A stretch of 64,000 nucleotides of DNA from Lingula anatina (GCA_051362555.1 CM120648.1:1961721-2025720); one strand, 5' to 3'. Counted from the first letter of the stretch, positions 1,540 through 62,778 are shown. Notes: a model not told the origin generated them from the sequence alone. A program made the numbers and translations.

Positions 1540-1618
<79 letters not shown>

Positions 1619-1620
1619 TT
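1517..1620. repeat. (TTTA)n microsatellite
   Basis: Directly visible tandem run. Confidence 0.95.
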
Positions 1621-3496: not shown

Positions 3497-3532
<36 letters not shown>

Positions 3533-3576
3533 ACGTAACAACGCGAAGATAAAGAAATTATATATACATATTCGCA

Positions 3577-3666
<90 letters not shown>

Positions 3667-6391: not shown

Positions 6392-6426
<35 letters not shown>

Positions 6427-30230: not shown

Positions 30231-31468
30231 TCACTTTTCGCAGATAAAATGAAGCGCCAGGTGACACTGATTGTCGTTCCATTGGAGTTTTTGAACAAAA
30301 AACATTTCCATGCAGTCTTCGTTATCCTTATTATTGGGTTCATTTGGAGCCCAGTTAAAATAGGAAACCCGTCTGTTGTCCTCCACCCAAACCCACGTGC
30401 CCTCTTTCGCCCCATCGTTACCACCAATCCACCAAGAAAAGTCAACTAGAAAATATGGCGTAAGATTTGTTATTTTAATGAAAAGGTTAAATTCCTTTTC
30501 TCTAAAATAGCAATGCAATTAGACATTTCTTAAACAATAAATTGAAACAACAAATGCATAGATACAAAATGTGCCTACATTGTAAATTATTTTTCACGTA
30601 GGAGACAACCATATTGTTCTCACTCTGGGAAGATATTGATGCCAAATTTGAAGATTTGTTTCGGCAATAGGCTTGTGCATCTGACCACGATTTCTTCACA
30701 TAGGAGAAGAGGTAGCATCGGTCACCAAGCAGGACAAACGGGGACTGACATCCTACAGATGCAATATTAAACACAAATGGACATTATGTCTTGTTGAACC
30801 TCTTCTTTACACAGCTGATATTGTAAAAACTGGTTTCATTTAACACATTACAAAAATTGGAGACTTTCGATCTATTATCAAATGATTTGAACAACAGTAA
30901 CATACGTGTCAAATGATTAATTTTCAGCTGCATTTGTTGCATATTTCGAATTAATATCCCCAGCTCTATTGCCATTATCTCCAGGGTGCTTTTGATGTTA
31001 TCAGAACGTTTAGGCTTATCATTAAGGGGGCTAACGCCTCGCCTCTCCAAAGAAAAGACCTGAAAAAACAAACAAACAAATAAACAAACAAACAAACGTA
31101 CGAGCTATGTGTAGATTGTTTAAAGTTGAAAACTTGAATGGAGATACACGAAATACTTTTTTGTATAAACTGCGACGTGATATATGATAAATACGCATAA
31201 TGAATAATGGTGCTGAGAACATATATTTAAATGAAATACCTTGCCACTAAAACGTTCTCAGATATAGGCCTACCATGCACCCAGGTATCCAGTGTGCATT
31301 ATATACATATAGATTGTTCAGTTATTAAATAAAACCTTCAACAAAACACTCAAACACGGGCATAAATACCTTTTCATTAGTAGAGGTGCCATTCCCATGG
31401 GCTTCGTGTTGAAACGCCAAGAAAGCCACAAAAAGTCCAAAGCAGAGGACAGAACTTTGCACTGGCAT
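30231..31468 (-). CDS. CTL1: secreted perlucin-like C-type lectin; signal peptide + coiled-coil neck + CRD (EPN...WND), 4 exons
   Basis: Exons 31370-31468, 30906-31059, 30579-30752 and 30231-30445 are phase-consistent. Motifs CYLFS, SWSDAQAYC, WIGG, W.W, EPN, EDC, WND, FICEK. Confidence 0.9.
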
Positions 31469-32940
31469 TATGATAGAGTATGAGATGAGGACCTGTGTGA
31501 ACTGGGTGTATTAACGTCCAACCGACTGCTGTGAATATGATTGAATTCAAGGGTTGAATAAACCGCACTCCGCTTTATGATTTATAATTCTATCCCGTTG
31601 GCTTTTGTTTGTTATCTATAAAATGGCTCCGATTTCTGTCTTCATAAGAATATGACGGTCTTGCGGAGAATCGGGTGCTGGATGGTTTCATCAACGCATC
31701 AGTTTTTTACAGTGTTAAATCTGTGTTTAATTGGAATGAATTGTACATAAACAACTACATAGTCGCATTGGATATAAATGAGTCATCCAGACCTGTATTA
31801 CTATACGTGTAAACAATGTTTTTAAACATGTTGCTGGTCTTACAGATTAGTTGATGACGTTGCGTATACACGACACGTAGTCTAAAATATCAAACATTAT
31901 AACATCAGTGGTGCCAATTTTATGATTGTTCTATTTTCAGATAAATGAAGTACATTTAGTCGACTTTTTAAAAGATATGATTTACGGTTGTGTTGTGTTT
32001 ATTTATCTATTATGAGAGAAACCTTTTTTACACCCCGTCACACTTATTTCGAATCAGCACTTTTGAAACTATAAAGTATTTGTGAATATACTTGATTTAG
32101 GAACTGCGAGATGTCGTAGAAATTTAATACTGTAACATGTGGGAAATATTAAGTTATCCCTCTTGAAAGAAATCAATTATATGGACAGCACGAGAAGCAA
32201 AAATTGTAAGATTCATGTACTTCCTTAAAGAATTCTACTGTTACATTGTGCTCATTAAAACGTAGGTATTGTAAAAGACCCCCCTCCCCGCCAAAATGAA
32301 ACCATTCATTGAAGAACTAACAAATTAAAGTGATAACCAATGCAGTGCAACAATGCATAGCAATTTGTTACTTTGTAGTTTTAAGAAGTCTGATTACAAA
32401 TTCACAGAGAGAACGAACAGGTGCAACAGAAGAATGCATTATAATCACTGTAATTGCTTATAATTTCAGGGGGTAATGCGATACCTTTTAGTAGGCAATC
32501 AGGAAATAAAAGGGAAATCACCCAAACCAAGAGATGTTTCAAATATGCCAAAAAGCCAAAAAGAATTCACCAGTTTTTCTTCTTTTCCAATGGCTATCAT
32601 TAATAAATGTCCCTATTTCCCTTATTTGATGCCTTTCTTCAATTTCAGAGCTATTTTATTTCGTTGGCACACATTCTTAATATATTATCTTGAACTGAAC
32701 ATAAATATGTTACTGTGCCATTTATTTTTCTCGTATCATCAAGGCAACAACTAACGTTGTGGTAGATTTTATTTGCCTGAACAACTCAATTATAGTAAAC
32801 ACCAGCTATGCCGACACTTTCTGCAAAAAATTATCCGGCGCCAATAAATACATTAAGAAACCAATCAGATAATTGTTATTGAAGATTCATCACTGCAAAT
32901 CATGGTTCAGTTCTTATGTCTCGTATAAGCAGTCCCTTTG

Positions 32941-35593
32941 CTACTTTTCACATATGAAATTCATTGCAATGCTGCATGAATTGTCATTCCATTTGTGATT
33001 CAAATCATAATACATATGTAAGCAGTCTTCTCCTCCATTGTAGTTGTCAGGTTGAGTGGGTATCCAGTTGGTATACCACATAACTTTGTTGGTATCCACC
33101 CACACCCACCTGCCCTCCTGTGCCATGTCATTGCCACCCAGCCACCAGTTGAAGTTGGCTGAAAGAAGAAAAAACTAATTTAAGGGGTTCCATCATTGCA
33201 ACATATGACCTTTCCCCAATACACTTTGCAAAGCAATAGTTAGTTGTACTATTAGATTCAGATTCCATTATTGTTCACAATCACTCTTTTTATTATATCT
33301 ACATATTTGCTTCAAGTTATACAGTTTTAAAGAGCTGAAACAGATACCGGTTACTGGTGGTTCAGTCGATGTCCAGAAATCAAGCTAACGGTTAAATAGA
33401 TGAATAGGTGTATAATTTGATAAATAAATAAATGGGCGAATGAAAAAATATACGATTGCGATAAACGTTGCTTGTGGAACGTAGGCCTAGGCCGTTGATT
33501 TTCTTTGATAATTATTGGTCCTCATTATATCCTGCAAGCAATTTCCAAATTTCTGACGGTCTGACAACCACGTAAGAAAACATACCTACCAGGAAAATAA
33601 TTTCGTACGTAGGAGACAATAATGTCATTTTCACGCCGGGAAGATACTGTTGCCAAATGTGAAGATTTGCTCCTGCAGTAGGCTTGTGCATATGACCAAG
33701 ATTTCTTCATGTAGGAGAACAGGTAGCAGCGACCTCCCAACAGTGCAAACGGAGCATGACATCCTAAAGAAATTCAACGCAAAGTGACATTTTTTCCCGA
33801 TAAGACAACATCTTAATACAGGCAATTGGACAAAGCTTAACAAGTTAATTTAATTAAAGAGTCAACTTACTTAACCTACTAGTACATGCTTAACATTGTA
33901 TGATATTACAAAAGTTAAATGCAACTTCATATGGTAACGCGTTAAATGCATTTTACGTAGTTTACGAATTACACACACTGGACAAAAGAAGTGTCACCCC
34001 CTAACTCAGAGTAATAAAAGTAGGCAGACCTTGGGTACTTATAATGCCTGGTCTACTTATAATGTGACTAATGAGTATAAAACCGCTACACCATGGAATT
34101 GTATTGTTGGTCTTGTACATGTACAGCAAATGTTATTACTGTCTTCCTCCAATATGGCAAGATACAGGCTATTATCTAACGGTTATAGGTGCAAGTTATT
34201 AACCCGAAGAGGCGGAATATAAACAATGTCAGAATATCGATACAATCGAACTGTTCAGTCAGAACCGTGCAGAGGGTCTGGTCTCGGTATAGAAACACTG
34301 GATCAAGAGACAAATTGCCTCTGATGAGTCGTCCAAGAAAAAATACTGGCCGTGAAGACCGACGACTGATTTTGATGTCCAGGTTGTCAAAGTTCGACAC
34401 TGCTTGTCAGTTGACAAAACACTGGAACAATTTCACACATAAGAATGTGTCTGTGAAAATTGCTAGGCGTCGGTTACATGCTCAGAGAGTGTACAGCAGG
34501 GTAGCAAGACTGAAACCTCTTATATTGTTACAAAACAGGCAACGTAGAGTAAACTAGGGTCAACAGGATCTGGAACTGGACAGTTCATGACAATTGGTCC
34601 TATATATTTTCTCTGATGAGTGTCGCTTTGGTCCGACCTCTGATGACAGACGGGTACTATGCTGGCAAATTGCTGGTAAAGCATTTGAACCACATGCACT
34701 AAATTTTCGAACCCGGAGCAGCATATTCATCACGGTGTGGGGCTGCATCAGCATCCATGGCTTGGGCGAATTGATAGTGGTTAATGGAAACATGAATCAC
34801 TAGAAATATATCGATGTTTTGGAGTCAGGCTTGCTCCCATCTATTACTAACATGTTTGGTGACAGGAATTATCCATTTGTTCACCAGGATGACAATGCTC
34901 CTTGTCACAGGCCCAGAGCAGCTGATGATTGGTTTGACCAACAGGACATTCGCAGGGTGATGTGGCCTGCCCAGAGTCCAGATGCAAACATAATAGAAAA
35001 TGTGTGGAATGATATGTCAAAACTTTTTACAAATGCCCGTCTAACCAGCAGAGAAACTCTGTTATATTCAGTGTTTCATGCTTGGGCCAGCATAAGCCCT
35101 GAACGCATTAGACAATTATATGAAACCTTCCTTCGTAGACTGGCACCTATTATTAGGTCACGTGGCTATGCCACTAAGTATAATTTTGGACTTGAAACTG
35201 CATATTTTGGTAGAATGTATATTTTGCTCTCATTTTGTGATTTTTTGTGAAATTTGATGTTAATAAAATGATACCAGCAGCATATCATTCCACAGTCATT
35301 TATCTCCACCATAGTATTGGTTCAGTAGGGGTGACACTTCTTTTGTCCAGTGTGTGTATTTGATTGCTCAGCTTTGATATGTAATTACAATTGTCAATTG
35401 ATTTATTTTCTGCAACATTTGCTGCAAACCCCAGTCAACTCTCTCCAGTCTCTTCGCAAGCTTACATTGTCTCAAGTGCATTACGGAGATAAGATTGCTC
35501 ACCTGCGGTGGTTCTGTGTCCAAAAATGCCACGTTGCAGCACGAAGAAGACCACAAATAATGCAAAACAGAGGACAGACCTTGTCACTGCCAT
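32941..35593 (-). CDS. CTL2: neckless secreted C-type lectin (QPD...WND), 3 exons, Tc1 element in intron 1
   Basis: Exons 35503-35593 (signal peptide), 33590-33763 and 32941-33158; all junctions phase 1. Confidence 0.87.
33972..35356 (+). mobile_element. Tc1/mariner DNA transposon (DD34E), full length with disrupted transposase, copy A
   Basis: 29-bp terminal inverted repeats CACACACTGGACAAAAGAAGTGTCACCCC, flanked by TA on both sides. Transposase fragments: SVRTVQR, RPRK, FSDE, VWGCIS, QDDNAPCH, WPAQSPDANIIENVW (34 residues between D and E), GYATKY. Several stops and frameshifts. Confidence 0.96.
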
Positions 35594-35639
35594 AATTACC
35601 TGGAGTGAGGAGTGGATCTAGCCGCCACTATTTACTTCC

Positions 35640-35780
35640 AAGCCAGAGTTGTGAATGCGAGTGAATAAGACGCACTCCGCTTTATAATTTAAAACAATAA
35701 CATCGCGCTAGGTGATGCTTGTATCTGATTTCTTTTTCATAATAAATGTCACGGTCTCATGTTGAATCGCTAGGTGGATG
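35640..35780 (-). promoter_or_regulatory. Conserved lectin upstream block with TATA-like element (representative copy)
   Basis: On the - strand TATAAAGCGGAGTGCGTCTTATTCACTCGCATTC lies ~90 bp upstream of the CTL2 ATG. The block recurs upstream of all seven lectins, most copies also carrying AGATAACAA (GATA-like). Confidence 0.5.
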
Positions 35781-37869
35781 TTTTTCTTCATACGGTATAC
35801 GCCTTATATTAAAACTTAATAATGCTTAATCCTGTTTGTTTTGTTTTTAATTGAAAAGTCATGAAAAAAAAACGATGCCGTAATTGATAGAGAAAATAAG
35901 AAATAACCAAATAAAACGGACCGTCGGAGACAGATTGTTTTATTAAAAGAATATTTATTTAGAGTCTAAAATCGATAAAAGATCTGTTTTGTAGACTTAA
36001 CAATTAAATGGGTAGAATGATGATGCATTCATATGCGCAACTCCCATCGCTGCATGGTTTTGGACTCTAAAAAAATATATTATTAAGTTTTAATTAATAT
36101 TTTTTTAAATTAAAATCGGATCTCTTACAAACATCTATAGCGCTGAATATATATTTCGGTAGAGAAAGTTTTATCAAAATAAAAACCGGTTGCAGAAACT
36201 GGTTTATGTCGATGTTGTATAGTTGTCGAAATGTCTTTCCTTTCACGAGGTGGTCTTCTTTCCCTTTTGGCAATTTTAAAGCTTTACATAGATTGAATTT
36301 ATTTATTATCATTTTTTTTTTTGGGGGGGGGGGGGGATTGGCTGGATCGCTTCGTGTGTTCATTTACTTTTCAGAACCACCTCACTTTGTTTATTGTAAT
36401 ATTAAATGGCACATCAATATCATATATGTATTATCTTGAACTGTGAGGAGAAATGCTTCTCTTTATCTCGTTAAGTCAACAACTCAACTATTTTAACTAT
36501 TTGCGGTAGCTTTTTATTTGTCTGAATAACTCACGTGTAAACAAGAGCTATTGTATAATTGTATCGGCAAATTTAATTATTATATAGAAGAATTAAGCTA
36601 GCAGCGACTGTCACCAAGTTTTGAGGACCAATCACTTTTGAGAGAAAGCATGTTAATAATTCCTGTGTATATGCGAAACAGGGCAGGATAATAATTTGAT
36701 TATTTCAAAAAACTATTGAACACCACAATTCCAGAAATATGTAGAACAAATAATCAAAATGTTCATATAATCTGAATAAAATACCTGAAACACCACCAAA
36801 TTAGTTTCCTAATTAATGATTTGATGCTCCAAATAAAATAGATATTTGAACATCGAAAGACGAACCCTGCACATACGCCTAATCCTCTATAATTATATAT
36901 TTCAGCTTAGATTTAATGCAGCATAAGTTATAACAGAAAAAGCACCATGCATCCTAACTATTAACTGAATGTGTGGGCTTTTCTTTTTCTGAATGACTCA
37001 CGTGTATTCTATACGGAACTGATGAATAAAAAATGCAGGATATTTGCAATCGAATTTTGGTAACTGAATATAATTTGACAGAAATCAAATGAAGGCTCTG
37101 TTCTTATGGTTCAGCTTCTTATACACCTGTATCACTAGCTCTACTATAATTAACTCCTGTGCAAACACAAAATACCATGAAATATATCTTGCATTTTTTT
37201 CCAACATAGATAAATAAAAAAATAAGCGCACCACTGTTGTTGAAAAAAGTAAATAACTATATAATCAAAATAAAGAGAGGAAGCATTACTTGCCTAAAAT
37301 TTAAAGTACAATTCACCCATACAAAAAACAAAACCAAAAAAAAAAAAAAAATTAAAAAAAAATAAAAACGAGAAATGAAATAAGATATAAAAAGTTTTAA
37401 AAGTCTCAAAATAATAATAAAGGAAACAATCTAATGATCTTGTACAGTATATATGGACTATACGTTTCAAACATTAACGAGATTAGAATTTAGACAGATG
37501 CACCCTAAAATCTAGAAAACCTCCAGTTATCCGTTTAAACAAATTTCACCATGGGTAGGGGGCCTATAATGCTAGTATGATAATGATAAGAAAAAAAATT
37601 AAGTGGGCCTAACGACCAATTACAGACCAATATCACGAAGTTGGGTTTCTGTAGAAGGCTATTCATACAAACTTAGCATTCTTTGATTATTATGAGTCTG
37701 TGATGTTAAGTGTAACATTGCCAAGAAGATCCTTGATCATCTCTCCGTAAAAAGTCTAATTTTATTCTTAAAATAAATAAATAAATAAATAAATTAATAA
37801 ATAAATAGACACTTAGTTTATGAGAACCATCATGAATTTCCAGTTTGTTCAAAGATTCAGCTGTTTTCA

Positions 37870-38973
37870 TTACTGTTCACAAATGAAATTCTTTGCAAAA
37901 CCACACCATTCATCATTCCATCTGTGTGCGTAATTCTGCCACAAATGCAAGCAGTCTTCCCTTCCACCGGAGTCATCAGGTTGTCTTGGATACCAGTTAG
38001 TATACGTCTTAACGCTTTTAGTGCCCACCCACACCCACCTGCCCTCCTGTGCCATGTCATTAACACCCACCCACCAACTGAAACTGACTGAAAGAAGAGA
38101 AAAGGAAAATTTTATTTTGTTGATTATACCAACTTGCAAACAATTCTCAAAACCAAGTTTTAACATCAAAATTAATCACTGCCTGGGCATATTGACGAGA
38201 ACAGTATTATATAAGGCAGTAACGTCTGAAAATTATACCTACCAGGAAATTTACTCCGTACGTACGAGACAATCATATTGTTCTCATGCTGGGATGTTAT
38301 TGTTGCCAAATTGGCATATTTGCTCCTGCAGTAGGCTTGTGCATCTGACCACGATTTAGTAAAATTGGAGAAGAGGTAGCATCCGTGATCAAGCCTGACA
38401 AATGGAGCCTGACATCCCTAAAAAGTTCAAAGCAAATGTTTTCTCCTTTAAACCCATCTTAATACAAATAACGTAGTATTAATACAGGACGTACATGTAG
38501 CTAGTTTTGCTTTACTTGGTAGATGACCAAACAGTGTACATTTTTAAAAATTATCTAGGTCAAGTTAAAAGCAACTTAATCAGAAATTAAATAAATCTTA
38601 AGCCATGTGAAAAACATTTTTGTATCACGGTAAATGCATTTCACAAAACCTCATCAATGATTTGAATGTGAACCTTTGACTAACAATTAAACACCATGAA
38701 TATAAGAAACATACCTGTACTTCTCAATTCATTCATTCTCTGCTGCACTTGTTGCAAACCCTGTTTGACTGTCTCTAGCTTGCTGTCCATCTTCTCAAGT
38801 TTGTCGCCAACCTTCTCCAACTTGAGTTCCATGGACCCCAGCTTCAATTTTACAATATCAAGGGTGTTTTGGAGAATATCAGTCGAGGTGGTCCCGTGTC
38901 CAAAAACGCCACGCTGCAGGTCGAAGAAGACTAAAATTAATCCAAAACCGAGGACAGACCTTGTCACTGCCAT
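37870..38973 (-). CDS. CTL3: necked C-type lectin (QPD...WND); exon-2 acceptor shifted by 1 nt, possible pseudogene
   Basis: Exons 38715-38973 (signal + heptad neck), 38243-38417 and 37870-38087. Exon 2 is 175 nt versus 174 nt in the six paralogues. Confidence 0.75.
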
Positions 38974-41200
38974 TATGGTAGGGTATAAGGCGTAGACCTG
39001 TGTGAACTGGATGTATTCACTTCTAAGCTACAGCTGGGAATGCGAGTGAATCACACGCACTCCGCTCATTCATTTTCAATTGCTTTATGCTAGTTGATGT
39101 TTGTTATCTATAAAGGGTGTCTGATTTCTTTTCATAAAAATGATTCAGTCTCATGTTGAATCGTGATGTGGATGTTCTTCATGCAGTATACACCTCAAAT
39201 TTCAACTTTATAAAGCTTAATTCTGTTTGTTTTTAATTGAAAAGTCCTCAAAAACAATCAACTCCTATTGAATAGAGAAAATAAGAGGTTATAAAAAAAA
39301 CAGACAGTCGAGGACATACTGCTTTAGTTATTACATATTGTTTTTTCAGATATCTGATTATAATTTTACAGAAAATAAACCTTCATGAAGCGATGATAGT
39401 GGAGTATATGAATGCACAGTCATTTTAACCATTGCATCAAAAGACGAATTTTGTCACAGAAACAGTCACAAAAAAGAAAATATGTCACAGAAACGTGTTT
39501 TATAGCCATATTTCATACTTGTCAAATTGTTTTTCATTTTAGAAATTTGTCTTTTTTTTTTTGCAATCTTCGAAATGTTATCTTGGCCTATACATAGAAA
39601 TACCTATGTTCTAACGTTTTATCTCATTATGTCTGCAACGCAACAACTAATCGTGGCAAAAGCTTTTATTTCTCTGAATACCGCGTAAACATAAAAAGAC
39701 AGATTAAAGCTACTGTAATTTTATCTGACATCGGTAAATAAAAGATTCAAATTAGCAATTTTGATCACTCATTTCATTTGAAAGAAAGCGTCGTTCTACG
39801 CTTATGTTTCATCTGGTTATATCAACAGTCTTTCAATTAATAACTCCTATGTAAATATGAAATAAGTTCAGATAAAGCGTATGGAATTTTATACTACACA
39901 GATAACTATAGAATCAAATTACATGTATCACCGATATTTTTGAGCGGAAGAAGTGAACAGCTGTGTTATTGACTTAAAGAATCCCAAGATTATTACCTTA
40001 AAAAATGACACTAAATAAAATAACAGCCAAATTACCCCAGAAATCTATATTGAAACTGAATAAAACACACATATACATGTATTCTGAATAAAATACCCAA
40101 AATAAGACTAAATTACAGACTTGACATATAATTGATTTTTGTTTTTCAACATCATTTTTCTTCGATTTTTTCCCATTTTTCTGACTAATAAATAAAAACA
40201 ACCTAACAAACGAGTTATCCATGCAAAAAAGCTTCCACACCAAGTTACTTGATGCATCGTCATTGTCATGAACCAGAGTCCCCTTTTTTTCTAATCGTCT
40301 GCCGAAAGAAATTGTTTTTCCCCCTGCAGTTGTAAAACTGGTTTCTCAGGATGCTTCAAAACTGTGAAAATGCTTAAATGATCACTTTTTTTGTTTTGTC
40401 TCTTTTCCATTGGCAAGTTTCAATATATTTACTTTTTTCCTTTTTTATGTTTGGAAGATGACTTTTTGACTTTTTAATCACATTTGTTGATTTTCAGTGG
40501 TACACATTCATATTATCTTGAATTGAAAGTAAATTAGTTTCTGTGCCACCGACTTTATCTTGTTGAATCATTAAAACAACAATTGGCTTTATGTGGTAGC
40601 TTCAACTTGCCCGAATAACTCACGTGTAAACACAAGTCGTGAGGAAAATCTCTGCAAAGATTCAATAAATACAAATATGAAACCAATAAGAGAATTGTAA
40701 TTGAACTTCTATCACTGCAAAGCATGGTTGTTTTCTTTTGTCTCGTTTAGTTCTTTTAGCAGTTTCTCTATGAACTACTCCTGTATAGGTACACAATACG
40801 TTGAAACAAAACTTATGAAATCTTATCTGACACTGAAAAATTAAAGAATCAAATTAGCAACAGCACTATTTCTAAATGATGTTAACAACTATATAATTGA
40901 ATAAAAGACATGAAATATTTTTCTTGAATACACAAAATAGCATTCACTCATGCAGCCAGTACTAACACAACGAGAAATTACAGAAAATATCAAATAAGTC
41001 CAAATAATAATTATAATAATAAAGGAAACAATCAGATGACATTTTGCAGTAAGGAGAAGCTTATATATTGGATGTGCTAGACGACAATGCAACCAGGTGT
41101 ACCCCAATAAAACCTCCAGTTATCTGTTTAATGATACATTTCAATTTTACGAAATCGATATCTTCAACAATTTGGTAGTTCAGGGAAATGACCACCTTTG

Positions 41201-42334
41201 CTACTTTTCACATATGAAATTGATTGCGTGGCCACACGGTCCATCATTCCATCTATGCTGAATGTGTGCCCACAAATCCAAGCAGTGCTCCCCTCCGTCG
41301 TTGTTAGGTTCTCCTGGACCCCAGTTAGTATACCTCATAACGCTGTTGGTATCCACCCACACCCACCTGCCCTCCTGTGCCATGTCATTACCACCCACCC
41401 ACCAGCTGAGGTGGGCTGAAAGAAGGAAAAGATAATCTGAAGGATCCCATCATTTCATCCCTTTTCTTAAAACACTTCGCAATGATAAATTGTACTACCA
41501 ATTTTCACTCCATTTTACAATCAAAGTCACTCTTTTTAGATCTGTATATTTGCTTCTAAATTATACTGTTTTTTAGTGTTAAACAGATACCGGGTAATTA
41601 TATGATTGATATAAACGTTGCTATTGATTTATAGGCACACGCCTTTTCTCCTTGATCATTATTGGTCCTAATTACATCTTACGAACAATTTGTGAATCCC
41701 TGACAGCCTGACAACCACGTAAGTAAACATATACCTACCAGGAAAATAAGTTCGTACGTAGGAGACAATCATGTAATTCTCATGCTGGGAAGTTATTCTT
41801 GCCAAATGTGAAGATTTGCTCCTGCAATAGGCTTGTGCGTGTGACCATGATTTCTGCATATAGGAGAAGAAGTAGCATCGACCACCAAGCTGCACAAAAG
41901 GTGCCTGACATCCTAAAGAAATTCAGCGCAAAGTGACATATTTTCCTATTAGGCTTCATCTTTTTTAAAAGTTGGAAAACAGAACTTTATGAAACAAAAT
42001 TAAAGTTAAAAACAACTTCGCATGGTAACGCATTAAAGGCATTTCACATAAATTACCGTGCAAATTATTTGAATACTAAGCTTTGATATGTAATTTTAAT
42101 TTAAAAATAACAAAATATAAGCTATAGTGGCAATCTTTTAAATTCATTTATTTTCCGCTGCATTTGTTAAAAACCCCGGTCGGTTTGATTTCCATCCTTA
42201 GAAGTTTACATTATCTCTGAAAGTGCATTACGAAGATAAGCATGCTCACCTGGACAGTGTCCAAAAACGCCACGCTGCAGCACGAAGATGGCAAAAATCA
42301 GTCCAAAACAGAGGACAGATCTTGTCATTGCCAT
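41201..42334 (-). CDS. CTL4: neckless secreted C-type lectin (EPN...WND), 3 exons
   Basis: Exons 42250-42334, 41739-41912 and 41201-41415; phase-consistent. Confidence 0.89.
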
Positions 42335-44083
42335 AATTACACGGTGTGAAGTGTGGATCCGTGCGAGCTGCGTCTATTAACTTCCAAGCTACAGTTGTGA
42401 ATGCGAGTGAATAAGACACACTCCACACAATAATTTATAGTCGTATCACGGTAGTTGTTGTTTGTTATCTAATAAGGGTGTCTGATTTCTTTTTCATAAA
42501 AATGTAATGGTCTTAGGTTGAATGTGTGGTGTAAGTTTTTTTTTCTTCATGCGGTATAAACTTCAAATTATAATTTCAACTTTATAATGCTTAACCCTGT
42601 TTATTTTTAATTAATGCCGTAATTAAAGAGAAAATAAGAAATTATCAAACAAAACAGACCGTCAGGGGCATACTGCTTTAGTTATAACATATTTATTAAG
42701 AGTCTTATAGCCATAAATAATTTTTGTAGACTTAACAATTAAAATACAAAAAGAAAAGGATTATTTTATATCGAAAAGTAATGACTTTAAAAGTAAAGCG
42801 AAAAATGTCCAATATATTATGTTCTGTAAAGTAAAAAATATTCAAGCATTTTTTAAATTAAAGCTTAATTTACCTGAACTATATGAAGTATGTATAAAAA
42901 ATTACCAGATGTTGTATGAAATAAAATACTGAAATGCACAAAAACATTAATTCGTCTGTCTTCGAAGTAATTAATAATCTAATATGAACACCATATGGCT
43001 AACAAAGAGCAATTAAAATAGTCCCATACAAGAAGCATACCGAATTTAAATTGTACTTATAAAAATAAAGGCCATGTATTACACATTTTCACTCGCCGCC
43101 GCCCTAACTGTTCTATGGAAAATAAATAATAAAAAAGACGTTTCAAGAAGGAACGACAAAGTGTATGCACATGAGCGATGATATTACCAGTACAATGCAA
43201 CCTTATATACCTGTACAGCGTTTACCTTGTTTTTTTTTTTTCAAACATCTGATTACAATTTTACAGAAAATAAACATTCGTGAAACGATGATAGTGGAGC
43301 ATATGAATGCACAGTCATTTTAATCGTTAACTGATCCATAAAAATAAGACTTTTGTCACAGAAACAGTCACAAAAAAGAAAAGAAAACATGTCACAGAAA
43401 CTTGTTTTATAGCGATGTTTCATACTTGTCAAACTGTCTTTCATTTTAGAATTTTGCCCTTTTTGCAATCTTCGAAATGTTATCATGGCCTATACATAGA
43501 AATGCCTATGTTCTAACGTTTTATTTCGTTATGTCAGCAACGCAACAAGTAATCATGCGCAAAAGCTTTATTTCTCTGAATAACGTGTAAGCATGAACAA
43601 AGACAGATTAAAGCTACTGTAATTTTATCTGACATCGGTAAATAAAAGTTTTAAATTAGCAAGAGGATTGTGACCGAATTCTGATCACTCATTTCATTTG
43701 AAAGAAAGCGTTGTTCTACGCTTATGTTTCATCTGGCTATATCAACAGTCTCTCTATTAATAGCTCCTAGGTAAATATGAAATAAGTTCAAATAAAACGT
43801 ATGGAATTTTATACTACACAGATAAATAAAGAATCAAATTATCACTGATATTTTTGAGCGGAAGAAGTGAGAAATTGCAGAAATATCAAATAAGTCCAAA
43901 TAATAATAAAGGCAACAATCAGATGACCTTTTGCAGTATTGAGAAGTTCCACACATAAGCGAGATGAGAATGCAACTAGATGTACTCCAATAAAACCTCC
44001 AGTTAGCTGTTTAATGATATATTTAAGTTTCACCAAATCGATATCTTCAACAACTTGGTAGGTCAGGGAAATGACCACCTCTG

Positions 44084-45558
44084 CTACTTTTCACATATGA
44101 TGTTCAATGTGTAGCTACACGGTGCATCATTCCATTTATGTGTAAAGTCTGACCATAAACACAAGCAGTGCTCCCTTCCACTAGGTTGTCCTGGACCCCA
44201 GTTAGTGTAACTCATAACCTTGTTGGTACCCACCCACACCCACTTGCCCTCCTGTGCCATGTCATTGCCACCCACCCACCAGTTGCCGCGGGCTGAAAGA
44301 AGAAAAAACTAATTTGAGGGTTGGATCACTTTCATTGATTATACATGTATGCAGCGCTTGCCAGTTTTTTAAAGTCACTTCACAAAGCAATATCTTTTGA
44401 AAGTTAGTCATACTATCAAATTTCAGATTGATTTATTGCATACAACTGATCCTGATACCCTGTATGCACTGTATATGTTTCTTCATTATGTTATACATTT
44501 CAGTATGTTGAAAGGTGCAACGCAAACTGTGAAATAAACTTACGGTAAAGTGAACGGATAAACGAGTTAATTAATAAATAATGGAAAAGATGAAGAAATA
44601 GGTGAATAACAATCTATTACCATTAACGTTACTATACTATGGATATATGGTTCTTACTCATTCTTGTGTATCATTTTTAAGCTGAAGGCATTTTTAAACC
44701 ATATTAATTAGTCATTGTCTATTAGTTGATGGGTAGATTCACGTAGACATAAATGACAGACAGAGAACCATGTAAGAAAATATACCTACTAGAAAAATGA
44801 TTTCGAACGTAGGAAACAATTATGTCGTTCTCAAACCGGGACGTTATCGTCGCTAAATTGGCATATTTGCTTATGCAATAAGCCTGTGCATCTGACCACG
44901 ATTTCTTCGTCTGGGAGAAGAGGTAGCATCGGCCATCAAGCGGGACAAACGGAGCCTGGCATCCTGAAGAAGTTCAAAGCTAACTGATGTTTTCTCCTCT
45001 TAAACCCATCTAAATACATATATTTTAAAAGAGGGCGTAGCTAGTTTTGCTTTACGTACTAGATGGCCAAACAGTGTACATTTTTAAAATTATTTACATG
45101 TAGATCAAGTTAAAAGCAACTTCATCCGATCATTAAATAAATCATAAGGCATGTGAAAATTATTCTTTTATGACGATAAATGCATTTCACAAGACCTCAT
45201 CAAAGATTTGTATGTGAACCTTTGCCTTACAATTTAACACCATGGATATAAGAAACATACCTCTCGATTCATTCATTCTCTGCTGCATTTGTTGCAAACC
45301 CTGTTTAACTGTCTCCAGTTTGCTGTCGATCTTCTCAAGTTTGTCGCCAACCTTCTTCAACAGTTTGTTGTCGTTCCTCTCAAGTTTGTCGCCAACCTTC
45401 TCCAACTTGAGTTCCATGGACCCCAGCTTTAATTTCATTATATCAAGGGTGTTTTGGAGAATATCATTCGAGGTGGTCCCATGTCCAAAAACGCCACGCT
45501 GCAGCACGAAGAATACCAAAATTAATCCAAAACAGAGGACAGACCTTGTCACTGCCAT
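44084..45558 (-). CDS. CTL5: necked C-type lectin with expanded coiled coil (QPS...WND), 3 exons
   Basis: Exons 45261-45558, 44790-44963 and 44084-44292; phase-consistent. Confidence 0.89.
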
Positions 45559-47818
45559 TAGAGTATGGTATGAGGCGTATACCTATGTGGACTGGGGTGT
45601 ATTTACTTCTAAGCCACAGCTGTGAATGCGAGTGAATTAGACGCACTCCGCTCATTAATTTTCAATTGCTTTATGCTAGTTGATGTTTGTTATCTATAAA
45701 GGGTGTCTGATTTCTTTTCATAGAAATGTCACAGTCTCATGTTGAATCGTGATTTGGATGTTCTTCATGCAGTATACACCTCAAATTTCAACTTTATAAT
45801 GCTTAATTCTGTTTGTTTTTAATTGAAAAATCCTCCAAAACAATCAACTCCTATTGAATAAAGAAAATAAGAGGTAATAAAACAAAACGGACAGTGGAGG
45901 ACATACTGCTTTAGTTATTACATATTGTTCTCCAGTTATCTGATTATAATTTTACATAAAACAAACATTCATGAAGCGATGATAGTGGAGTATATGAAAA
46001 CACAGTCATTTTAACCATTGCATCAAAAGACGAATTTTGTCACAGAAACAGTCACAAAAAAGAAAATATGTCACAGAAACGTGTTTTATAGCCATATTTC
46101 ATACTTGTTAAATTGTTTTTCATTTTAGAAATTTGTCTTTTTTGCAATCTTCGAAATGTTATCATGGCCTATACGTAGAAATGCCTATGTTTCAAACGTT
46201 TTATTTCGTTATGTCAGCAACGCAACAAGTAATCATGCGCCAAAGCTTTATTTTTCTGAATAACGTGTAAACATAAACAAATACAGATTACTGTAATTTT
46301 ATCTGACAGCAGTGAATAAAAGATTTAAATTAGCAACAGGGTTGTGACTGAATTCTGATCACTCATTTCATTTGAAAGAAAGCGTTGTTCTACGCTTATG
46401 TTTCATCTGGTTATATCAACAGTCTTTCTATTAATAACTCCTATGTAAATATGAAATAAGTTCAGATAAAGCGTATGGAATTTTATACTACACAGATAAA
46501 TATAGAATCAAATTATCACCGATATTTTTGAGCGGAAGAAGTGAACAGCTGTGTTATTGACTTAAAGAATCCCAAGATTATTACATTAAAAAATGACACT
46601 AAATAAAATAACAGCCAAATAACCCCAGATATCTATATGGAAACTGAATAAAACACACATATACATTTATTCTGAATAAAATACCCAAATTACGACTAAA
46701 TTACAGACTTGACATATGATTGATTTTTTTTTCAACATCATTTTTCTTCAATTTTTTCCTATTTTTCTGACTAATAAATAAAAACAACCTAGCAAACGAG
46801 TTATCCATGCAAAAAGCTTCAACGTCAAGTTACTTGATGCCTCGTCATGAACCAAAGTCTTTTGCAGAGTCCCCTAACATTTTTTCTGATCGTCTGCTGA
46901 AAAAAATTGTATTTTCCCCTGCAATTGTGAGACTCTGGATTCTGATAATGCTTCAGAAATGTGTTAATGCCGAAACGATCTCTTTTTTGTTTCGTTTCTT
47001 TTCCTTTGCCAAGTTTCAATATATTTACTTGTTTCTTTTTTATGTTTCGAATAAAAGAATGGTTTGATCACTTGATGACTTTTTACGCTTATCAGCATTA
47101 ATTCATTTGTTGATTTTCAGTGGTACACATTACTATTATCTTGAAATGAACGTAAATTTTTCTGTGCCAGCGATTTTTTTCTTGTTCAAACATCAAAACA
47201 ACAATTGGCTTTATATGGTAGCTTCAACTTGCCCGAATAATTCATGGGCAAACACAAGTTGTGAGGAAAATCTCCACAAAAATTCAATAAATACAAATAT
47301 GAAACCAATAAGATAATTGTAATTGTAGTTTTATCACTGCAAAGCATGATTATTTGCTTTTGTCTCATCTAGTTATTTTAGCAGTTCCTCTATAAACTAC
47401 TCCTGTGTATATACCCAATACGTTGAAATAAAACTTATGAAATCCTATCTGACACTTAAAAATAAAAGAATCAAATTAGCATCAGCACTGTTTCTGAATG
47501 ATGTTAACAACTATATAATTGAATAAAAGACATGATATTTTTCTTAAATACACAAATTAGTGTTCACTAATGCTGCCAATACTAAAAAAACGAGAAATTA
47601 CAGGAGATATCAAATAAGTCCAAATAATAAGAAGAAGGGAAACAATCAGATGACCTTTTGCAGTATAGAGAAGTTGCACACACACCACATATAAGAGAGA
47701 TGAGAATGAACTAGATGCACTCCAAGAAAACCGACAGTTATCTGTTTAATGATATATTTCAATTTCACCATATCGATATCTTCAACAACTTGGTAGGTCA
47801 GGGAAATGACCATCTGTG

Positions 47819-49294
47819 CTACTTTTCACATATGAAATTCTTTGCGTGGCCACACGGTGCATCATTCCATCTATGTGTGATGACTGACCGCAATTCCAAG
47901 CAGTGCTCTATTCCTTCGTTGTTGCTAGGTTCTCCTGGGTACCAGTTCGTGTAACTCATAACGCTGTTGGTATCCACCCACACCCACCTGCCCTCCTGTG
48001 CCATGTCATTACCACCCACCCACCAGCTGAAGTTGACTGAAAGAAGGAAAAACTTACCTATCATTTCAATATATGACCTTTCCTTAATACACTTCGCAGT
48101 GATAAATTGTACTATCAATTTTCATTCCATTTTACTATCACAATCACTCTTTTTATACCTGCATATTTGCTTCTAAATTATACTCTTTTTAAATGTTAAG
48201 CAGATACCGGGTAATTATAAAATCAACGTTGCTATTGATGTATGGGCGTATGGTTTTTCTCTTTGATCATAATTGTTCCTTTTTAAATTTTGCGGACAAT
48301 GTTTGAATTCCTGACAGCCTGACAACCACGTAAGAAAACATATACCTACCAGAAAAATAATTCCGTACGTAGGAGACAATCATATTGTTCTCACTCTGAG
48401 AAGTTATTCTTGCCAAATGTGAAGATATGCTCCTGCAATAGGCTTGTGCATGTGACCACGATTTCTGCATACAGGAGAAGAAGTAGCATCGACCACTTAG
48501 CTGGACAAAAGGAGCCTGACATCCTAAAAAAATTCAGCGCAAACTTACATTTTTCCTTTTAGGCTGCATCTTTTTAAAAAAGTGGGAAAACAGAACTTAA
48601 TGAACCAAAATTCATGTTAAAAGCAACTTCGAATGGTAACGCGTTAAAGGCGTTTCACAAATATTACTGTACAAATTATTTGATTGCTCAGCTTCGATAT
48701 GTAATTAAAGGATTTGCTTCATACCGTCAGAATGGCCTCAACGGAACATATTCTTCAGAAAACATGCCCAACTAACGATATCTTTATCCAAATACACAAA
48801 TTAAAAGCTCATTTTGTAAATTTTTGGCTTTAAAAAACGTCCTATTTGCTCGGCCTGGGAGTTAATGAGCTACGTGGTCACGTGGTCCGATGACGACAAT
48901 CGAGCCACTGGAGAACAGAGCGTGCTTAAACACCCTTTACACTGGACGGCGTCCTTTCTGCGTCCTTTGTGCGACCATGAAACTGGCCAGGACGCCGTCG
49001 GACGCTCAAAGAACGCACAGTGATCGCCAAGGTCGCACAAAGAACGTTCAAGCATCGCAACACAATATTAGTTTTGGCGGCAATTGTCGATTCATTTATT
49101 TTCTGCTACATTTGTTGCAAACCAGTTTCACTCTCACTAGTTTGCTGTCCATCTGCTCAAGCTTTCCTAATCTGAAGTGTATTTCGAAAATATGCATGCT
49201 CACCTGGGAAGATTACGAGTCCAAAAACGCCACGCTGCAACACGAAGAAGACCAAAATTAGTCCAAAACAGAGGACAGACCTTGTCACTGCCAT
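47819..49294 (-). CDS. CTL6: neckless secreted C-type lectin (EPS...WND), 3 exons
   Basis: Exons 49204-49294, 48350-48523 and 47819-48036; phase-consistent. Confidence 0.89.
48708..49080. mobile_element. ~370-bp insertion in CTL6 intron 1, probably a truncated DNA-transposon end
   Basis: Absent at the homologous position in CTL2 ('gtaatta|caattgtc', ~35381-35396) and in CTL4. It begins ttaa-agg, reminiscent of TTAA-targeting elements such as Kolobok; no matching right end is seen. Confidence 0.55.
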
Positions 49295-50973
49295 TATTAC
49301 ACGATGTGAAGTGTGGATCTGTGCGACCTGCGTCTATTAACTTCCAAGCTACAGCTGTGAATGCGAGTGAATAAGACGCACTCCGCACATTTATTTATAG
49401 GCGCATCACGGTAGTTGTTGTTTGTTATCTAATAAAGGTGTCTGATTTCTTTTTCATAAAAATGTAGTGGTCTTAGGTTGAATCGTGTGGTGTAAGTTTT
49501 TTTTTCTTCGTGCGGTATAAACATCAAATTATAATTTCAACTTTATAATGCTTAACCCTGTTTATTTTTAATTGATGCCGTAATCAAAGAGAAAATAAGA
49601 AATAATCAAACAAAACAGACCGTCAGGGGCATACTGCTTTAGTTATAACATATTTATTTAGAGTCTAATAGCCATAAATAATTTTTGTAGACTTAACAAT
49701 TAAATACAAAATAAAAATGATTATTTTATACCGAAAGGTAATGACTTTAAAAGTAAAGAGAAAAAGGTTCAATATATTATGTTCTGTAAAGTAAAAAATA
49801 TTCAAGCATTTTTTAAGTTCAAGCTAATTTTACCTGAACTATATAAAGTATGCATAAGAAATTACCAGATGTTGTATCAAATAAAATACTGAAATACTTC
49901 ACAAGGACCCTAATTCGCCTGTCTTCGAAAACATTAATAATCTTATATGAACTCCATATGGCACACAAGGAGCTAAATAGTCCCATACAAGAAGCATGCC
50001 GAATTTAAATTGTACTTAAAAAAATACAGGCCATGTATAACATATTTTCACTTGCCGCCGCCCTAACTGTTTTATAAAAAATTAATAATAAAAAAGACGT
50101 TTCAAGAAGGAACGACGAAGTGCATGCACAGGAACAATGATATCAACAGTACAATGCAACCTTATATACCTGTACAGCATTTACCTTGTTTTTTTCAAAC
50201 ATCTGATTACAATTTTACAGAAAATAAACATTCGTGAAGCTATGATAGTGGAGTATATGAATGCACAGTCATTTTAATCGTTAACTGATCCATAAAAAAG
50301 ACTTTTGTCACAGACACGGTCACAAAAAAAAAAAAAAAAAAAAAAAATGTCACAGAAACTTGTTTTATAGCGATGTTTCATACTTGTCAAATTGTCTTTC
50401 ATTTTAGAATTTTGCCTTTTTTGCAATCTTCGAAATGTTATCTTGGTCTATACATAGAAATGCCTATGTTCTAACGTTTTATCTCATTAAGTCAGCAACG
50501 CAACAAGTAATCATGCGCAAAAGCTTTATTTTTCTGAATAACGTGTAAACATGAACAAATACAGATTACTGTAATTTTATCTGACATCAGTGAATAAAAG
50601 ATTTAAATTAGCGAGAGGATTGTGACTGAATTCTGATCACTCATTTCATTTGAAAGAAAGCGTTGTTCTACGCTTATGCTTCATCTGGTTATATCAACAG
50701 TCTCTCTATTTATAGCTCCTAGGTAAATATGGAATAAGTTCAAATAAAGCGTATGGAATTTTATACTACACAGATAAATAAAGACTCAAATTATCACTGA
50801 TATTTTTGAGCGGAAGAAGTGAGAAATTACAGAAATATCAAATAAGTCCAAATAATAATAAAGGCAACAATCAGATGACCTTTTGCAGTATTGAGAAGTT
50901 CCACATATACGCGAGATGAGAATGCAACTAGATGTACTCCAATAAAACATCCAGTTATCTGTTTAATGATATA

Positions 50974-52357
50974 CACACACTGGACAAAAGAAGTGTCACC
51001 CCTACTGAGCCAATACTATGGGGGAGATAAATGACTGTGGAATGATATGCTCCTGGTTTCATTTTATCAACATCAAATTTCACAAAAAATCACAAAATGA
51101 GAACAAAATATACATTCTACCAAAATATGCAGTTTCAAGTCCAAAATTAGTACTTAGTGGCATAGCCATGTGACCTAATAATAGGTGCCAGTCTACGAAG
51201 CAAGGTTTCATATAATTGTCTGCTGCGTTCAGGGCTTATGCTGGCCCAAGCATGAAACACTGAATATAACAGAGTTTCTCTGCTGGTTAGACGGGCATTT
51301 GTAAAAGGTTTTGACATATCATTCCACACATTTTCTATTATGTTTGCATCCGGACTCTGGGCAGACCACATCACCCTGCGAATGTCCTGTTGGTCAAACC
51401 AATCATCATCTGCTCTGGACCTGTGACAAGGAGCATTCTCATCCTGGTGAACAAACGGATAATTCCTGTCACCAAACATGTTAGTTATAGATTGTAGCAA
51501 GCCTGACTCCAAAACATCGATATATTTCAAGTGATTCACGTTTCCATTAACCACTATCAATTCGCCCAAGCCATGGATGCTGATGCAGCCCCACACCATG
51601 ATGAATATGCTACTCCGGGTTCGAAAATTCAGTGCATGTGGTTCAAATGCTTTACCAGCAGTTTGCCAGCATAGTACCCGTCTGTCATCAGATGTCAGAC
51701 CAAAGCGACACTCATCAGAAAAAAATATATAGGACCAATTGTCATGAACTGTCCAGTTCCAGATCCTGTTGACCCTAGTTTACTCTACGTTGCCTGTTTT
51801 GTAACAATATAAGAGGTTTCAGTCTTGCTACCCTGCTGTACACTCTCTGAGCATGTAACCGACGCCTAGTAATTTTTACAGACACATTCTTATGTGTAAA
51901 ATTGTTCCACTGTGTTGTCAACTGACAAGCAGTGTCGAACTTTGACAACCTGGACATCAAAATCAGTCGTCGGTCTTCACGGCCAGTATTTTTTCTTGGA
52001 CGACCCATCAGAGGCAATTTGTCTCTTGATCCAGTGTTTCCATACCGAGATCAGACCCTCTGCACGGTTCTGACTGAACAATTCAATTGTATCGATATTC
52101 TGACATTGCTTATATTCCGCCTCTTCAGGTTAATAACTTGCACCTATAACCGTTAGATAATTGCCTGTATCTTGCCATATTGGAGGAAGACAGGAATAAC
52201 ATTTGCTGTACATGTACAAGACCAACAATACAATTCCATGGTATAGCGGTTTTATACTCATTAGTCACATTATAAGTAGACCAGGCATTATAAGTACCCA
52301 AGATCTGCCTACTATTACTCTGAGTTAGGGGGTGACACTTCTTTTGTCCAGTGTGTG
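50974..52357 (-). mobile_element. Tc1/mariner DNA transposon (DD34E), full length with disrupted transposase, copy B
   Basis: Same 29-bp TIRs and TA flanks as copy A, opposite orientation. ORF fragments 51775-52017 and 51147-51599 match copy A. Inserted 65 bp downstream of the CTL7 stop; the empty site 'aatgataTAtttaagtttcacc' is visible at ~44013-44034. Confidence 0.96.
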
Positions 52358-52422
52358 TATTTCAGTTTCACCAAATCGATATCTTCAACAACTTGGTAGG
52401 CCAGGAGAAATGACCATCTTTG

Positions 52423-53922
52423 CTACTTTTCACATATGATTCTCAGTGCATTGCCACACGGTGCATCATTCCATCTATGTGTGATGTGTTGCCACATACT
52501 CAAGCAGTGCTCCCCTCCATTGTTATCAGGTTGTCCTGGACCCCAGTTAGTATACCTCACAGCGCTGTTGGTACCCACCCAGACCCACCTGCCCTCCTGT
52601 GCCATGTCATTACCACCCACCCACCAGTCAAATTTGACTGAAATAAGAGAAAACTTATTGGAGGGGTTGCATCACTTTCATTGATTATACATGTATGCAG
52701 CGCTTGCCAATTTTTTAAGTCACTTCACAAAGTAGTATCTTTCGAAAGTTAGTCAAACTATCAAATTTCAGATTGAATTATTGTTTACAACCGACCCTGA
52801 TACCCTATATACATGGTATACACTGTATATGTTTCTTCGTTATGTTATACATTTCAGTATGTTTAAAGGCGCAGTGCAAACTGCGGTAAAGTGAATGGAT
52901 AACGAGTTGATAAATAAAGAAAATGGTGAAGAAATAAGTGAATAAACGTGCCATAAATGTTACTATTTATTTATGGATATATGGTTCTTGCTGATTCTTG
53001 GGTATCATTTTTATGTTGAAGGTATTTTAAAACCATATTAATTAGTCATTGTCTTTTAGTTGATGGGTAGATTCACGTAGGCATAAATGACAGACATAAA
53101 GCCATGTAAGTGTATCATTTTTATGTTGAGGGTATTTTAAAACAATATTAATTAGTCATTGTATATTATTTGATAGGCAGATTCACGTATACGAATGGCA
53201 GAAAGAGAACCATGTTAGAAAATATACCTACTAGGAAAATGATTTCGAACGTAGGAAACAATTATGTCGTTCTCACACCGTGACGTTATCGTCGCTAAAT
53301 TGGCATATTTGCTTCTGCAATAGGCTTGTGCATCTGACCACGATTTCTTTGTCTGGGAGAAGAGGTAGCATCGGCCATCAAGCATGACAAACGGGGACTG
53401 GCAAACTAAAGAAGTCGAAAACAAATTGACATTTTTTTCTTATAAGACTCCAGCGCTTTACAGGTCAGTTTTTTATTTTACTAACTAACCAATTGCAAAC
53501 AGTGTATAATATTGACATACATAATAAAGAAATAAAAAAATAAATTAAAAGCACTCTCATGGCACTGAAATATATTTTGAGCCATTTAGAAATTCATTTT
53601 TTGTTTATATATGCATTATCTCTGATTTAAATATAAAAAAATGTTGGACGTGAAACTTAAATCGACGAATTTCGTCAAGTGCCATTCAAAATAATATCAA
53701 TATTTGTAACATACTTGTAAGTTGATTCACTTTCCGTTGCACCTCTTCAAAACCCTTTTCCAGTTTGCTGTCCATCTTTTCGAGCTTTATTTTCATTGCC
53801 TCAAGTGTGCTGCGGAGATAAGCACTCTCACTTGAGGTGGTCTTGTCTCCAAAACCACCAAGATGCAACATGAAGAAGACCAAAATTAATCCAAAACAGA
53901 GGACAGACCTTGTCACTGCCAT
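52423..53922 (-). CDS. CTL7: necked C-type lectin with short coiled coil (QPD...WND), 3 exons
   Basis: Exons 53715-53922, 53232-53405 and 52423-52637; phase-consistent. Confidence 0.89.
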
Positions 53923-62682: not shown

Positions 62683-62778
62683 GTGAGAAAAGTAGATGAT
62701 TGTTGTCTTTGAATAGTTTTCGTTTTTAGAGAAAACTTTTCATGTGATTGTGCATTTGGTGCAATAAGAGATTGACTG

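What the first reader, a model, noticed from the sequence alone, without database searches (positions are those of the whole stretch)
35390..49294. Intronisation of the coiled-coil neck creates alternating necked and neckless lectins
Seen: CTL3/5/7 encode signal peptide and heptad neck in one exon. In CTL2, 4 and 6 a strong phase-1 donor (CAG|GTGAGC at 35501-2, 42248-9, 49202-3) sits just after the signal peptide. The sequence downstream is still recognisable neck DNA but decayed: CTL6 reads KLEQMDSKL...GLQQM*QKINEST with frameshifts, CTL2 reads SYLRNALETM*, and the old donor is lost. The array therefore alternates neck+ (1,3,5,7) and neck- (2,4,6). Known: coiled-coil necks oligomerise C-type lectins (collectins, tetranectin, DC-SIGN) and raise avidity. 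Inference: a domain was deleted by a splice-site shift rather than DNA loss, giving paired multimeric and monomeric lectins.
Basis: partly seen in the sequence, partly recalled or inferred. Interest (0 to 1): 0.85.

Follow-up and report, generated by a model that had tools for sequence, protein, structure and literature searches.

The report
Splice-site shift removed a lectin neck
In a tandem array of seven secreted C-type lectin genes, most likely from the brachiopod Lingula, three genes keep the decayed DNA of a coiled-coil neck inside an intron, likely because one ancestral copy gained an earlier splice site; this is a clear example of a known way for duplicated genes to lose a domain.

Summary
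The core observation holds. CTL2, CTL4 and CTL6 have a phase-1 CAG|GTGAGC donor just after the signal peptide. It joins in frame to intact lectin exons, and the intron start aligns to neck DNA (12 of 12 pairs beat all 500 shuffles). All three share one 5-nt frameshift and a dead old donor, and they group in trees (91/91, 85/95). This is likely one event; the alternation is mostly a by-product of duplicating a two-gene block. Their lectin exons show dN/dS 0.40-0.45, and three Lingula RefSeq models are also neckless at this point. No read across an early donor was seen: coverage was only trace.

Corrections: CTL1's neck lies in its own exon; CTL3 is frameshifted at its acceptor as assembled; intron number is unchanged, so this is pseudoexonization by donor shift; 'monomeric' is untested, and CTL4 and CTL6 carry a seventh cysteine.

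New points: necked CTL7 has a weak GT at the same site, a candidate precursor, and neck state appears to recombine with lectin type (CTL5 is chimeric). The mechanism is a known kind (snake SVMP PI genes, MADS-box and RLR paralogs). Interest is modest.

The parts
30231..31468 (-). CTL1: 4 exons (31468-31370, 31059-30906 neck exon, 30752-30579, 30445-30231); 213 aa; EPN/WND; most divergent copy
   Evidence: reads of a diverged CTL1-like transcript give joints matching intron lengths 153 and 133
32941..35593 (-). CTL2, neckless: exons 35593-35503, 33763-33590, 33158-32941; 160 aa; QPD/WND; 6 Cys
35392..35502 (-). CTL2 early donor (GT 35502-1) and decayed neck DNA; read-through stop at 35464-62; dead old donor near 35392
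33966..35360 (+). Tc1/mariner-type element in CTL2 intron 1, with terminal inverted repeats and TA flanks
   Evidence: the sister copy has a DDE_3 hit
37870..38973 (-). CTL3: necked exon 1 (38973-38715); exon-2 acceptor AG one base out of phase (exon starts at 38417), so frameshifted as assembled; QPD/WND
41201..42334 (-). CTL4, neckless: exons 42334-42250, 41912-41739, 41415-41201; 157 aa; EPN/WND; extra Cys27
42135..42249 (-). CTL4 early donor (GT 42249-8) and decayed neck DNA; stop at 42208-06
44084..45558 (-). CTL5, necked (74-aa neck region): exons 45558-45261, 44963-44790, 44292-44084; 226 aa; QPS/WND; 5' part CTL3-like, 3' part CTL7-like
47819..49294 (-). CTL6, neckless: exons 49294-49204, 48523-48350, 48036-47819; 160 aa; EPS/WND; extra Cys48; near-identical to XP_013402517.1
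49085..49203 (-). CTL6 early donor (GT 49203-2) and decayed neck DNA; stop at 49159-57
48715..49059 (.). About 345-bp dispersed repeat in CTL6 intron 1, absent from the CTL4 intron
   Evidence: heavy partial read cover with loose ends
50965..52363 (-). Second Tc1/mariner-type copy (96% to the first), about 60 nt past the CTL7 stop
52423..53922 (-). CTL7, necked: exons 53922-53715, 53405-53232, 52637-52423; 198 aa; QPD/WND
53826..53834 (-). CTL7 CAA|GTGAGA: phase-1 donor-like site homologous to the early donor; its use would give a 159-aa neckless form (predicted)

Best explanation
Three of seven tandem C-type lectin genes carry a consensus 5' splice site just after the signal peptide, with decayed neck DNA behind it in intron 1, likely because one ancestral necked copy switched to that earlier donor and was then duplicated. 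Shown: donor, phase, open spliced frames, neck homology, shared lesions, purifying selection on the lectin exons. Inferred: (1) The ancestral coding sequence already held a phase-1 A|GTGAG, as CTL7 does, and an A>G change at -1 made CAG|GTGAG. (2) Both donors are phase 1, so the frame was kept and the about 40-aa neck dropped out. (3) The neck then took a 5-nt deletion, lost its old donor and decayed; the order of donor gain and frameshift is not resolved. (4) The neckless gene gave rise to CTL2 and a CTL4/6 ancestor; duplication of a necked+neckless block produced the alternation, and unequal crossing-over or conversion has since mixed 5' and 3' halves. (5) The products are likely short secreted single-domain lectins of lower valency than necked paralogs (untested).
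For: In-frame GT-AG models for all three genes. Neck homology in 12 of 12 pairs, 0 of 500 shuffles. The donor-to-AAGCT/AAACT distance is 39, 42 and 39 nt versus 44 in CTL7, the same frameshift in all three, and all three have TTG at the old donor. The three form one side of a branch in 2 of 2 treekit trees (91/91, 85/95; not starred) and in 5 of 8 partition trees, with weak support in several. Lectin-exon dN/dS is 0.40 (CI 0.25-0.66), 0.40 (0.25-0.69) and 0.45 (0.27-0.84). In a neutral simulation all three stayed open in 2 of 20000 runs. Three of five close RefSeq relatives are neckless at the same point, and XP_013402517.1 has the CTL6 junction VIFP|GCQAPF. The most divergent copy, CTL1, and two RefSeq paralogs have a neck, so the neck is probably ancestral. 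CTL7 has the homologous GT in phase 1. The two-gene block is 85% identical over 3995 nt.
Against: No read crosses an early donor. Seven of the 9 listed runs were laid, each read at about 6-30%; CTL2-6 had only trace depth, and 8 joints were not displayed. The RefSeq models are predictions whose RNA support I could not check. The CTL4 and CTL6 neck remnants are only 74% identical (83 of 112), against 88-94% for their flanks and 90% for exon 2, and CTL6's remnant scores best against necked CTL5 and CTL3. That suggests conversion, which weakens dating by shared lesions. Clade supports are below the starred level. In the exon-3, signal-peptide and downstream partitions the three do not group.
Confidence: 0.72

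Rival explanations
1. CTL2/4/6 are pseudogenes killed by neck frameshifts, and the early GT is incidental.
For: Exon-1 read-through stops at 42-45 aa. Only trace reads fell on these genes while a CTL1-like transcript was well covered.
Against: Lectin exons are open with dN/dS below 1. Neutral survival was 2 of 20000 for all three and 332 of 20000 for CTL4+6 alone. The consensus donor is kept in all three, at -11.1 kcal/mol in a crude U1 duplex score. Necked CTL3 and CTL5 were also at trace depth.
Confidence: 0.08
2. The neckless exon-1 cassette arose once but was pasted later, by gene conversion or unequal crossing-over, onto lectin exons that had evolved as necked genes. The selection signal would then predate neck loss.
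For: RefSeq XP_013416324.1 joins a neckless exon 1 to a CTL3-type domain (98/94% by exon), and XP_013402520.1 joins an intact neck to a CTL6-type exon 2 (96%). CTL5 is chimeric: CTL3+CTL5 group upstream (92/95) but are rejected around exon 2 (p-AU 0.011). Signal-peptide DNA is 83-96% alike among CTL2-7.
Against: In this window the neckless three group in upstream DNA, remnant, intron 1, exon 2 and intron 2 alike. The remnants have diverged to 74-80% from each other, so the state is not very recent.
Confidence: 0.13
3. The neck was lost several times independently, and neck+/neck- neighbours are kept as selected functional pairs.
For: Perfect alternation has a 1 in 35 chance under random order. 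In the 3/4 and 5/6 pairs the necked gene has a QP-type motif and the neckless gene an EP-type motif.
Against: The shared frameshift and dead donor, the two-gene block duplication, the frameshift in CTL3, and CTL2 being neckless with QPD.
Confidence: 0.05
4. About function only: the neck is an effector or receptor-binding arm rather than only an oligomerisation domain, so neckless forms would act as binders without signalling, or as decoys.
For: In the shrimp lectin MjCC-CL the coiled-coil domain binds Domeless and activates JAK/STAT (PMC5645147, abstract). Neck length varies from 44 to 74 aa here.
Against: No evidence here for any partner. The necks are plain heptads (CTL3: 15 of 17 a/d positions hydrophobic, 0 of 2000 shuffles).
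Confidence: 0.15

Closest known systems
Lingula anatina RefSeq perlucin / perlucin-like models (XP_013402517.1, XP_013402508.1, XP_013416324.1, XP_013402520.1, XP_013416323.1)
   Same: Same family. XP_013402517.1 is 100/96% identical to CTL6 exons 2/3 and has the same neckless junction; both necked (203, 188 aa) and neckless (160-162 aa) forms are already annotated.
   Different: The names carry no account of the neck remnant. Neck state and lectin type are combined differently from this window. 'Perlucin' is a source label; no shell function was tested.
Snake venom metalloproteinase PII-to-PI conversion, Echis ocellatus (PMC4963849; passages read)
   Same: Splice-site mutations left domain-coding DNA inside an intron and removed a domain in a duplicated secreted gene family.
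   Different: There a whole exon was absorbed after loss of both its sites; here a new internal donor trims the 3' part of exon 1.
Exonization/pseudoexonization in duplicate genes (PMC4852290, MADS-box; PMC8998645, lophotrochozoan RLRs including L. anatina; passages read)
   Same: Defined as exonic DNA of one paralog aligning to intronic DNA of another; found in five of nine RLR cases of N-terminal domain change.
   Different: Different gene families. Here the precursor-like site, the lesions and the block duplication all lie within 24 kb.
Origin of alternative 5' splice sites (PMC1876488; abstract read)
   Same: A mutation inside an exon creates a competing donor, and the trimmed part is frame-preserving.
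   Different: Here the new site appears to have become constitutive in one paralog lineage and the old site was lost.
Necked C-type lectins (langerin, PDB 3kqg/5g6u) and Dectin-1 isoforms A/B with and without stalk (PMC3322459; passages)
   Same: A helical neck precedes a C-type lectin domain, and forms with and without a linker coexist.
   Different: Those are membrane proteins, and Dectin-1 makes its two forms from one gene by alternative splicing; here they are separate secreted paralogs.

Membership tests
C-type lectin domain (PF00059) | Profile match above the curated cut-off | tested here: met
   CTL6 exon 3: 47.4 bits vs 22.6; exon 2: 27.1 bits. Only CTL6's lectin exons were scanned; the other six align at 54-80% in exon 3.
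C-type lectin domain (PF00059) | Six conserved cysteines, EPN/QPD-type motif and WND (motif meanings recalled) | tested here: met
   7 of 7 have at least 6 Cys and WND; EPN x2, QPD x3, and the variants EPS and QPS
C-type lectin domain (PF00059) | Calcium-dependent sugar binding | not testable with these tools
   needs a binding assay
Collectins | Gly-X-Y collagen region before the neck (recalled definition) | tested here: not met
   none in the 7 models
Necked (langerin/tetranectin-like) C-type lectins | Heptad-repeat neck directly before the lectin domain | tested here: met
   CTL3 0, CTL7 7 and CTL1 14 of 2000 shuffles reach the heptad score. CTL5 fails a single-register test (1027 of 2000), likely because a 15-residue insert shifts the register.
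Necked (langerin/tetranectin-like) C-type lectins | Neck-driven oligomer in solution | not testable with these tools
   needs SEC-MALS or cross-linking
Pseudoexonization by donor shift | Intronic DNA of one paralog aligns to exonic DNA of another | tested here: met
   12 of 12 pairs, 0 of 500 shuffles
Pseudoexonization by donor shift | The new donor is used in transcripts | tested here: inconclusive
   trace depth only and no joint listed; RefSeq models agree
Intronization in the strict sense (new intron made from exon; recalled definition) | Intron number rises | tested here: not met
   CTL2/4/6 have two introns like CTL3/5/7; only the 5' boundary moved
Perlucin (shell-matrix lectin) | Presence in shell matrix or effect on mineral | not testable with these tools
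   source name only; PMC4595640 mentions perlucin once as shell-associated (passage), not these genes

The most novel reading that the evidence does not exclude
Exon 1 is a two-state valency cassette (neck on or off by one splice-site base) that recombination swaps between different sugar-binding domains, so individuals carry different neck-by-specificity combinations; CTL7 would be the living intermediate that makes both isoforms from two phase-1 donors.
Probability: 0.2. Interest if true: 0.62.

Novelty: new member of a known kind. Interest (0 to 1): 0.36.

Why it matters
It is an unusually complete record of domain loss by splice-site shift. A candidate precursor site (CTL7), the fixed state (CTL2/4/6), the shared lesions and the duplication that spread it all lie in 24 kb, so each step can be tested with a minigene. 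If neck state also recombines with lectin type across haplotypes, it would be a simple germline route to diversify avidity separately from specificity in an invertebrate lectin family. The mechanism itself is known.

Tried and rejected
No whole genome is held for this window, so paralogs elsewhere and their DNA could not be examined. The run search had no RNA holder listed. Runs X1, X4, X5 and X7 on 37820-54200 at 94% gave almost only repeat reads. Runs X2, X7, X8 and X9 on 30100-50000 at 88% gave CTL1-like joints only.

A three-copy complex prediction of P0038 residues 26-203 returned no verdict: score 0.61, but one control scored 0.50. An AlphaFold2 model from a 5-sequence alignment was unusable (mean pLDDT 41.5; helix 30-71 at about 60-67), so no fold search was run. 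A homolog search with CTL7 exon 1 alone found nothing. The representatives search returned mostly multi-domain receptors and added no close relative. The family search returned the same five Lingula proteins plus one distant hit.

Earlier-findings look-ups returned 0. Gerdol et al. 2018 on Lingula immunity (doi 10.1016/j.dci.2017.12.021) is not held and may describe these lectins. Literature searches (listings only, apart from the papers cited as read) showed no paper on this array. PMC10140915 and PMC8878817 (passages) do not treat it. No supplements were read.

Rejected: three independent losses; strict intronization; CTL3 as an intact necked gene; CTL1 neck skipping as a route to a neckless form (its flanking introns are phase 0 and 1). 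The U1 duplex score is crude: donors of CTL1 introns supported by CTL1-like reads score only -2.1 and -4.0.

Full report
Setting. The window (36% GC) holds seven minus-strand C-type lectin genes between 30231 and 53922, spaced 3.2-4.6 kb apart. The closest proteins found are five Lingula anatina RefSeq perlucin-like models; XP_013402517.1 is 100% and 96% identical to CTL6 exons 2 and 3. The window is therefore most likely from Lingula (inference). No whole genome was held.

Observation. CTL2, 4 and 6 have CAG|GTGAGC in phase 1 after codon 30, 28 and 30. Splicing to the next AG gives open frames of 160, 157 and 160 aa, while read-through stops at 43, 42 and 45 aa. Their intron starts align to neck DNA of the four necked genes; in 12 of 12 pairs none of 500 shuffles reached the score. 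A necked RefSeq paralog also finds the remnants by tblastn in pieces (E 4e-5 to 0.2). The old donor is gone in all three.

Two corrections. CTL1's neck sits in its own exon behind a phase-0 intron. Reads of a CTL1-like transcript with many fixed differences support its next two introns: the 30751-30920 joint (168 skipped minus 15 unplaced letters = 153) has 11, 71 and 10 reads in X8, X9 and X7, and the 133-nt joint has 13, 56 and 5. CTL3's acceptor is one base out of phase with its strong donor, so the canonical product stops at 95 aa. My first CTL3 model hid this.

One origin. The distance from the donor GT to the next conserved motif is 39, 42 and 39 nt in CTL2, 4 and 6 against 44 in CTL7, the same frameshift (CTL4 has an extra codon). 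All three also read TTG where the old donor stood. They form one side of a branch around exon 2 (91/91) and upstream (85/95), neither at the starred level. They group in 5 of 8 partitions, but not in the signal peptide, exon 3 or downstream DNA. Block 38230-42095 matches 44777-48706 at 85%, and 42109-44021 matches 49059-50973 at 90%. A necked+neckless unit was therefore duplicated, which explains most of the alternation without selection for pairing (inference).

Functional or dead. Lectin-exon dN/dS among the neckless genes is 0.40, 0.40 and 0.45, with bootstrap intervals below 1 (simple codon counting). A substitution-only neutral simulation at those dS values left all three open in 2 of 20000 runs, and CTL4+6 in 332 of 20000. 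Three of five RefSeq relatives are neckless at the same point, but these are predictions and I could not check their RNA support. Seven of 9 listed runs were laid, each read at about 6-30%. CTL2-6 had trace depth and no early-donor joint was listed, with 8 joints not displayed. Use of the donor is thus strongly inferred, not shown.

Mechanism. Necked CTL7 has CAA|GTGAGA at the homologous site, in phase 1 like its normal donor. A crude U1 duplex score rates the two alike (-4.6 and -4.0) and the CAG version at -11.1. The simplest path is a cryptic donor strengthened by A>G at -1, as in the competing-site model (PMC1876488, abstract), followed by decay. The reverse order, frameshift first and rescue by the cryptic donor, is not excluded. 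CTL7 is predicted to be able to make a 159-aa neckless isoform.

Reassortment. CTL5 is CTL3-like upstream and in exon 1 (93%) but CTL7-like in exon 2 and intron 2 (93%, 87%); holding CTL3+CTL5 together around exon 2 is rejected (p-AU 0.011). RefSeq has a neckless model with a CTL3-type domain (98/94%) and a necked model with a CTL6-type exon 2 (96%). Neck state may therefore move between domains, though a chimeric annotation cannot be excluded without that DNA. Unexplained: the CTL4 and CTL6 remnants are only 74% alike against 88-94% in their flanks, possibly from conversion.

Protein consequence. The necks of CTL1, 3 and 7 show heptad periodicity (14, 0 and 7 of 2000 shuffles), while CTL5 fails a one-register test. 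Langerin is the closest necked solved relative. That such necks oligomerise is established for other lectins (PMC2857130, start of abstract in listing), but it is untested here. CTL4 and CTL6 have an odd cysteine, as do CTL5 and CTL7, so 'monomeric' is not safe. An effector role for the neck has a precedent in shrimp (PMC5645147, abstract).

Known kinds. Domain loss by splice-site change in a duplicated secreted family is described for snake PI metalloproteinases (PMC4963849, passages). Pseudoexonization is common among paralogs, including lophotrochozoan RLRs (PMC4852290 and PMC8998645, passages). Intron number is unchanged here, so strict intronization is not met. Searches listed no paper on this array; the main Lingula immunity paper was not available.

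Verdict: real, well supported, a new member of a known kind; interest 0.36.

Noticed in passing
window 31369-31003 (-): CTL1 has about 370 extra bases between signal peptide and neck: a 310-nt phase-0 intron plus about 19 codons with dibasic sites (ERR, KPKR), possibly a propeptide. It sits almost where the early donor arose in CTL2/4/6. Intron gain versus loss is unresolved.
   Followed up: partly
window 38416-38419 (-): The CTL3 exon-2 acceptor is one base out of phase: a frameshifted allele or an assembly error. CTL3 also has an Asp in its signal-peptide region (residue 18).
   Followed up: partly
window 33966-35360 and 50965-52363: Two 96%-identical Tc1/mariner-type copies in opposite orientation, both with broken transposase frames. 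RNA reads show recurrent internal deletions of about 975 and 1130 nt in copies elsewhere.
   Followed up: partly
window 48715-49059: An abundant dispersed repeat with short internal inverted arms in CTL6 intron 1; its core 48925-48987 is heavily covered by partial RNA reads.
   Followed up: no
window 30696-30920: A minor alternative joint (9 reads in X9) of the CTL1-like transcript into exon 3; it appears to be out of frame.
   Followed up: no
window 30230-31470: CTL1-like reads differ from the window at many near-fixed sites, so the RNA animals carry a diverged allele or paralog; the array may differ strongly between populations.
   Followed up: no
window about 130-9000 (+): ORF fragments with transmembrane-like sequence that recall an SLC17/MFS transporter gene (label recalled; Pfam gave no significant hit on two fragments).
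   Followed up: no
window 60721-62700 (+): Acidic low-complexity ORFs (245, 105 and 127 aa), probably exons of one gene; no Pfam hit for the 245-aa ORF.
   Followed up: no
window 45440-45320 (-): The CTL5 neck has a 15-residue internal duplication relative to CTL3; neck length varies among paralogs.
   Followed up: partly
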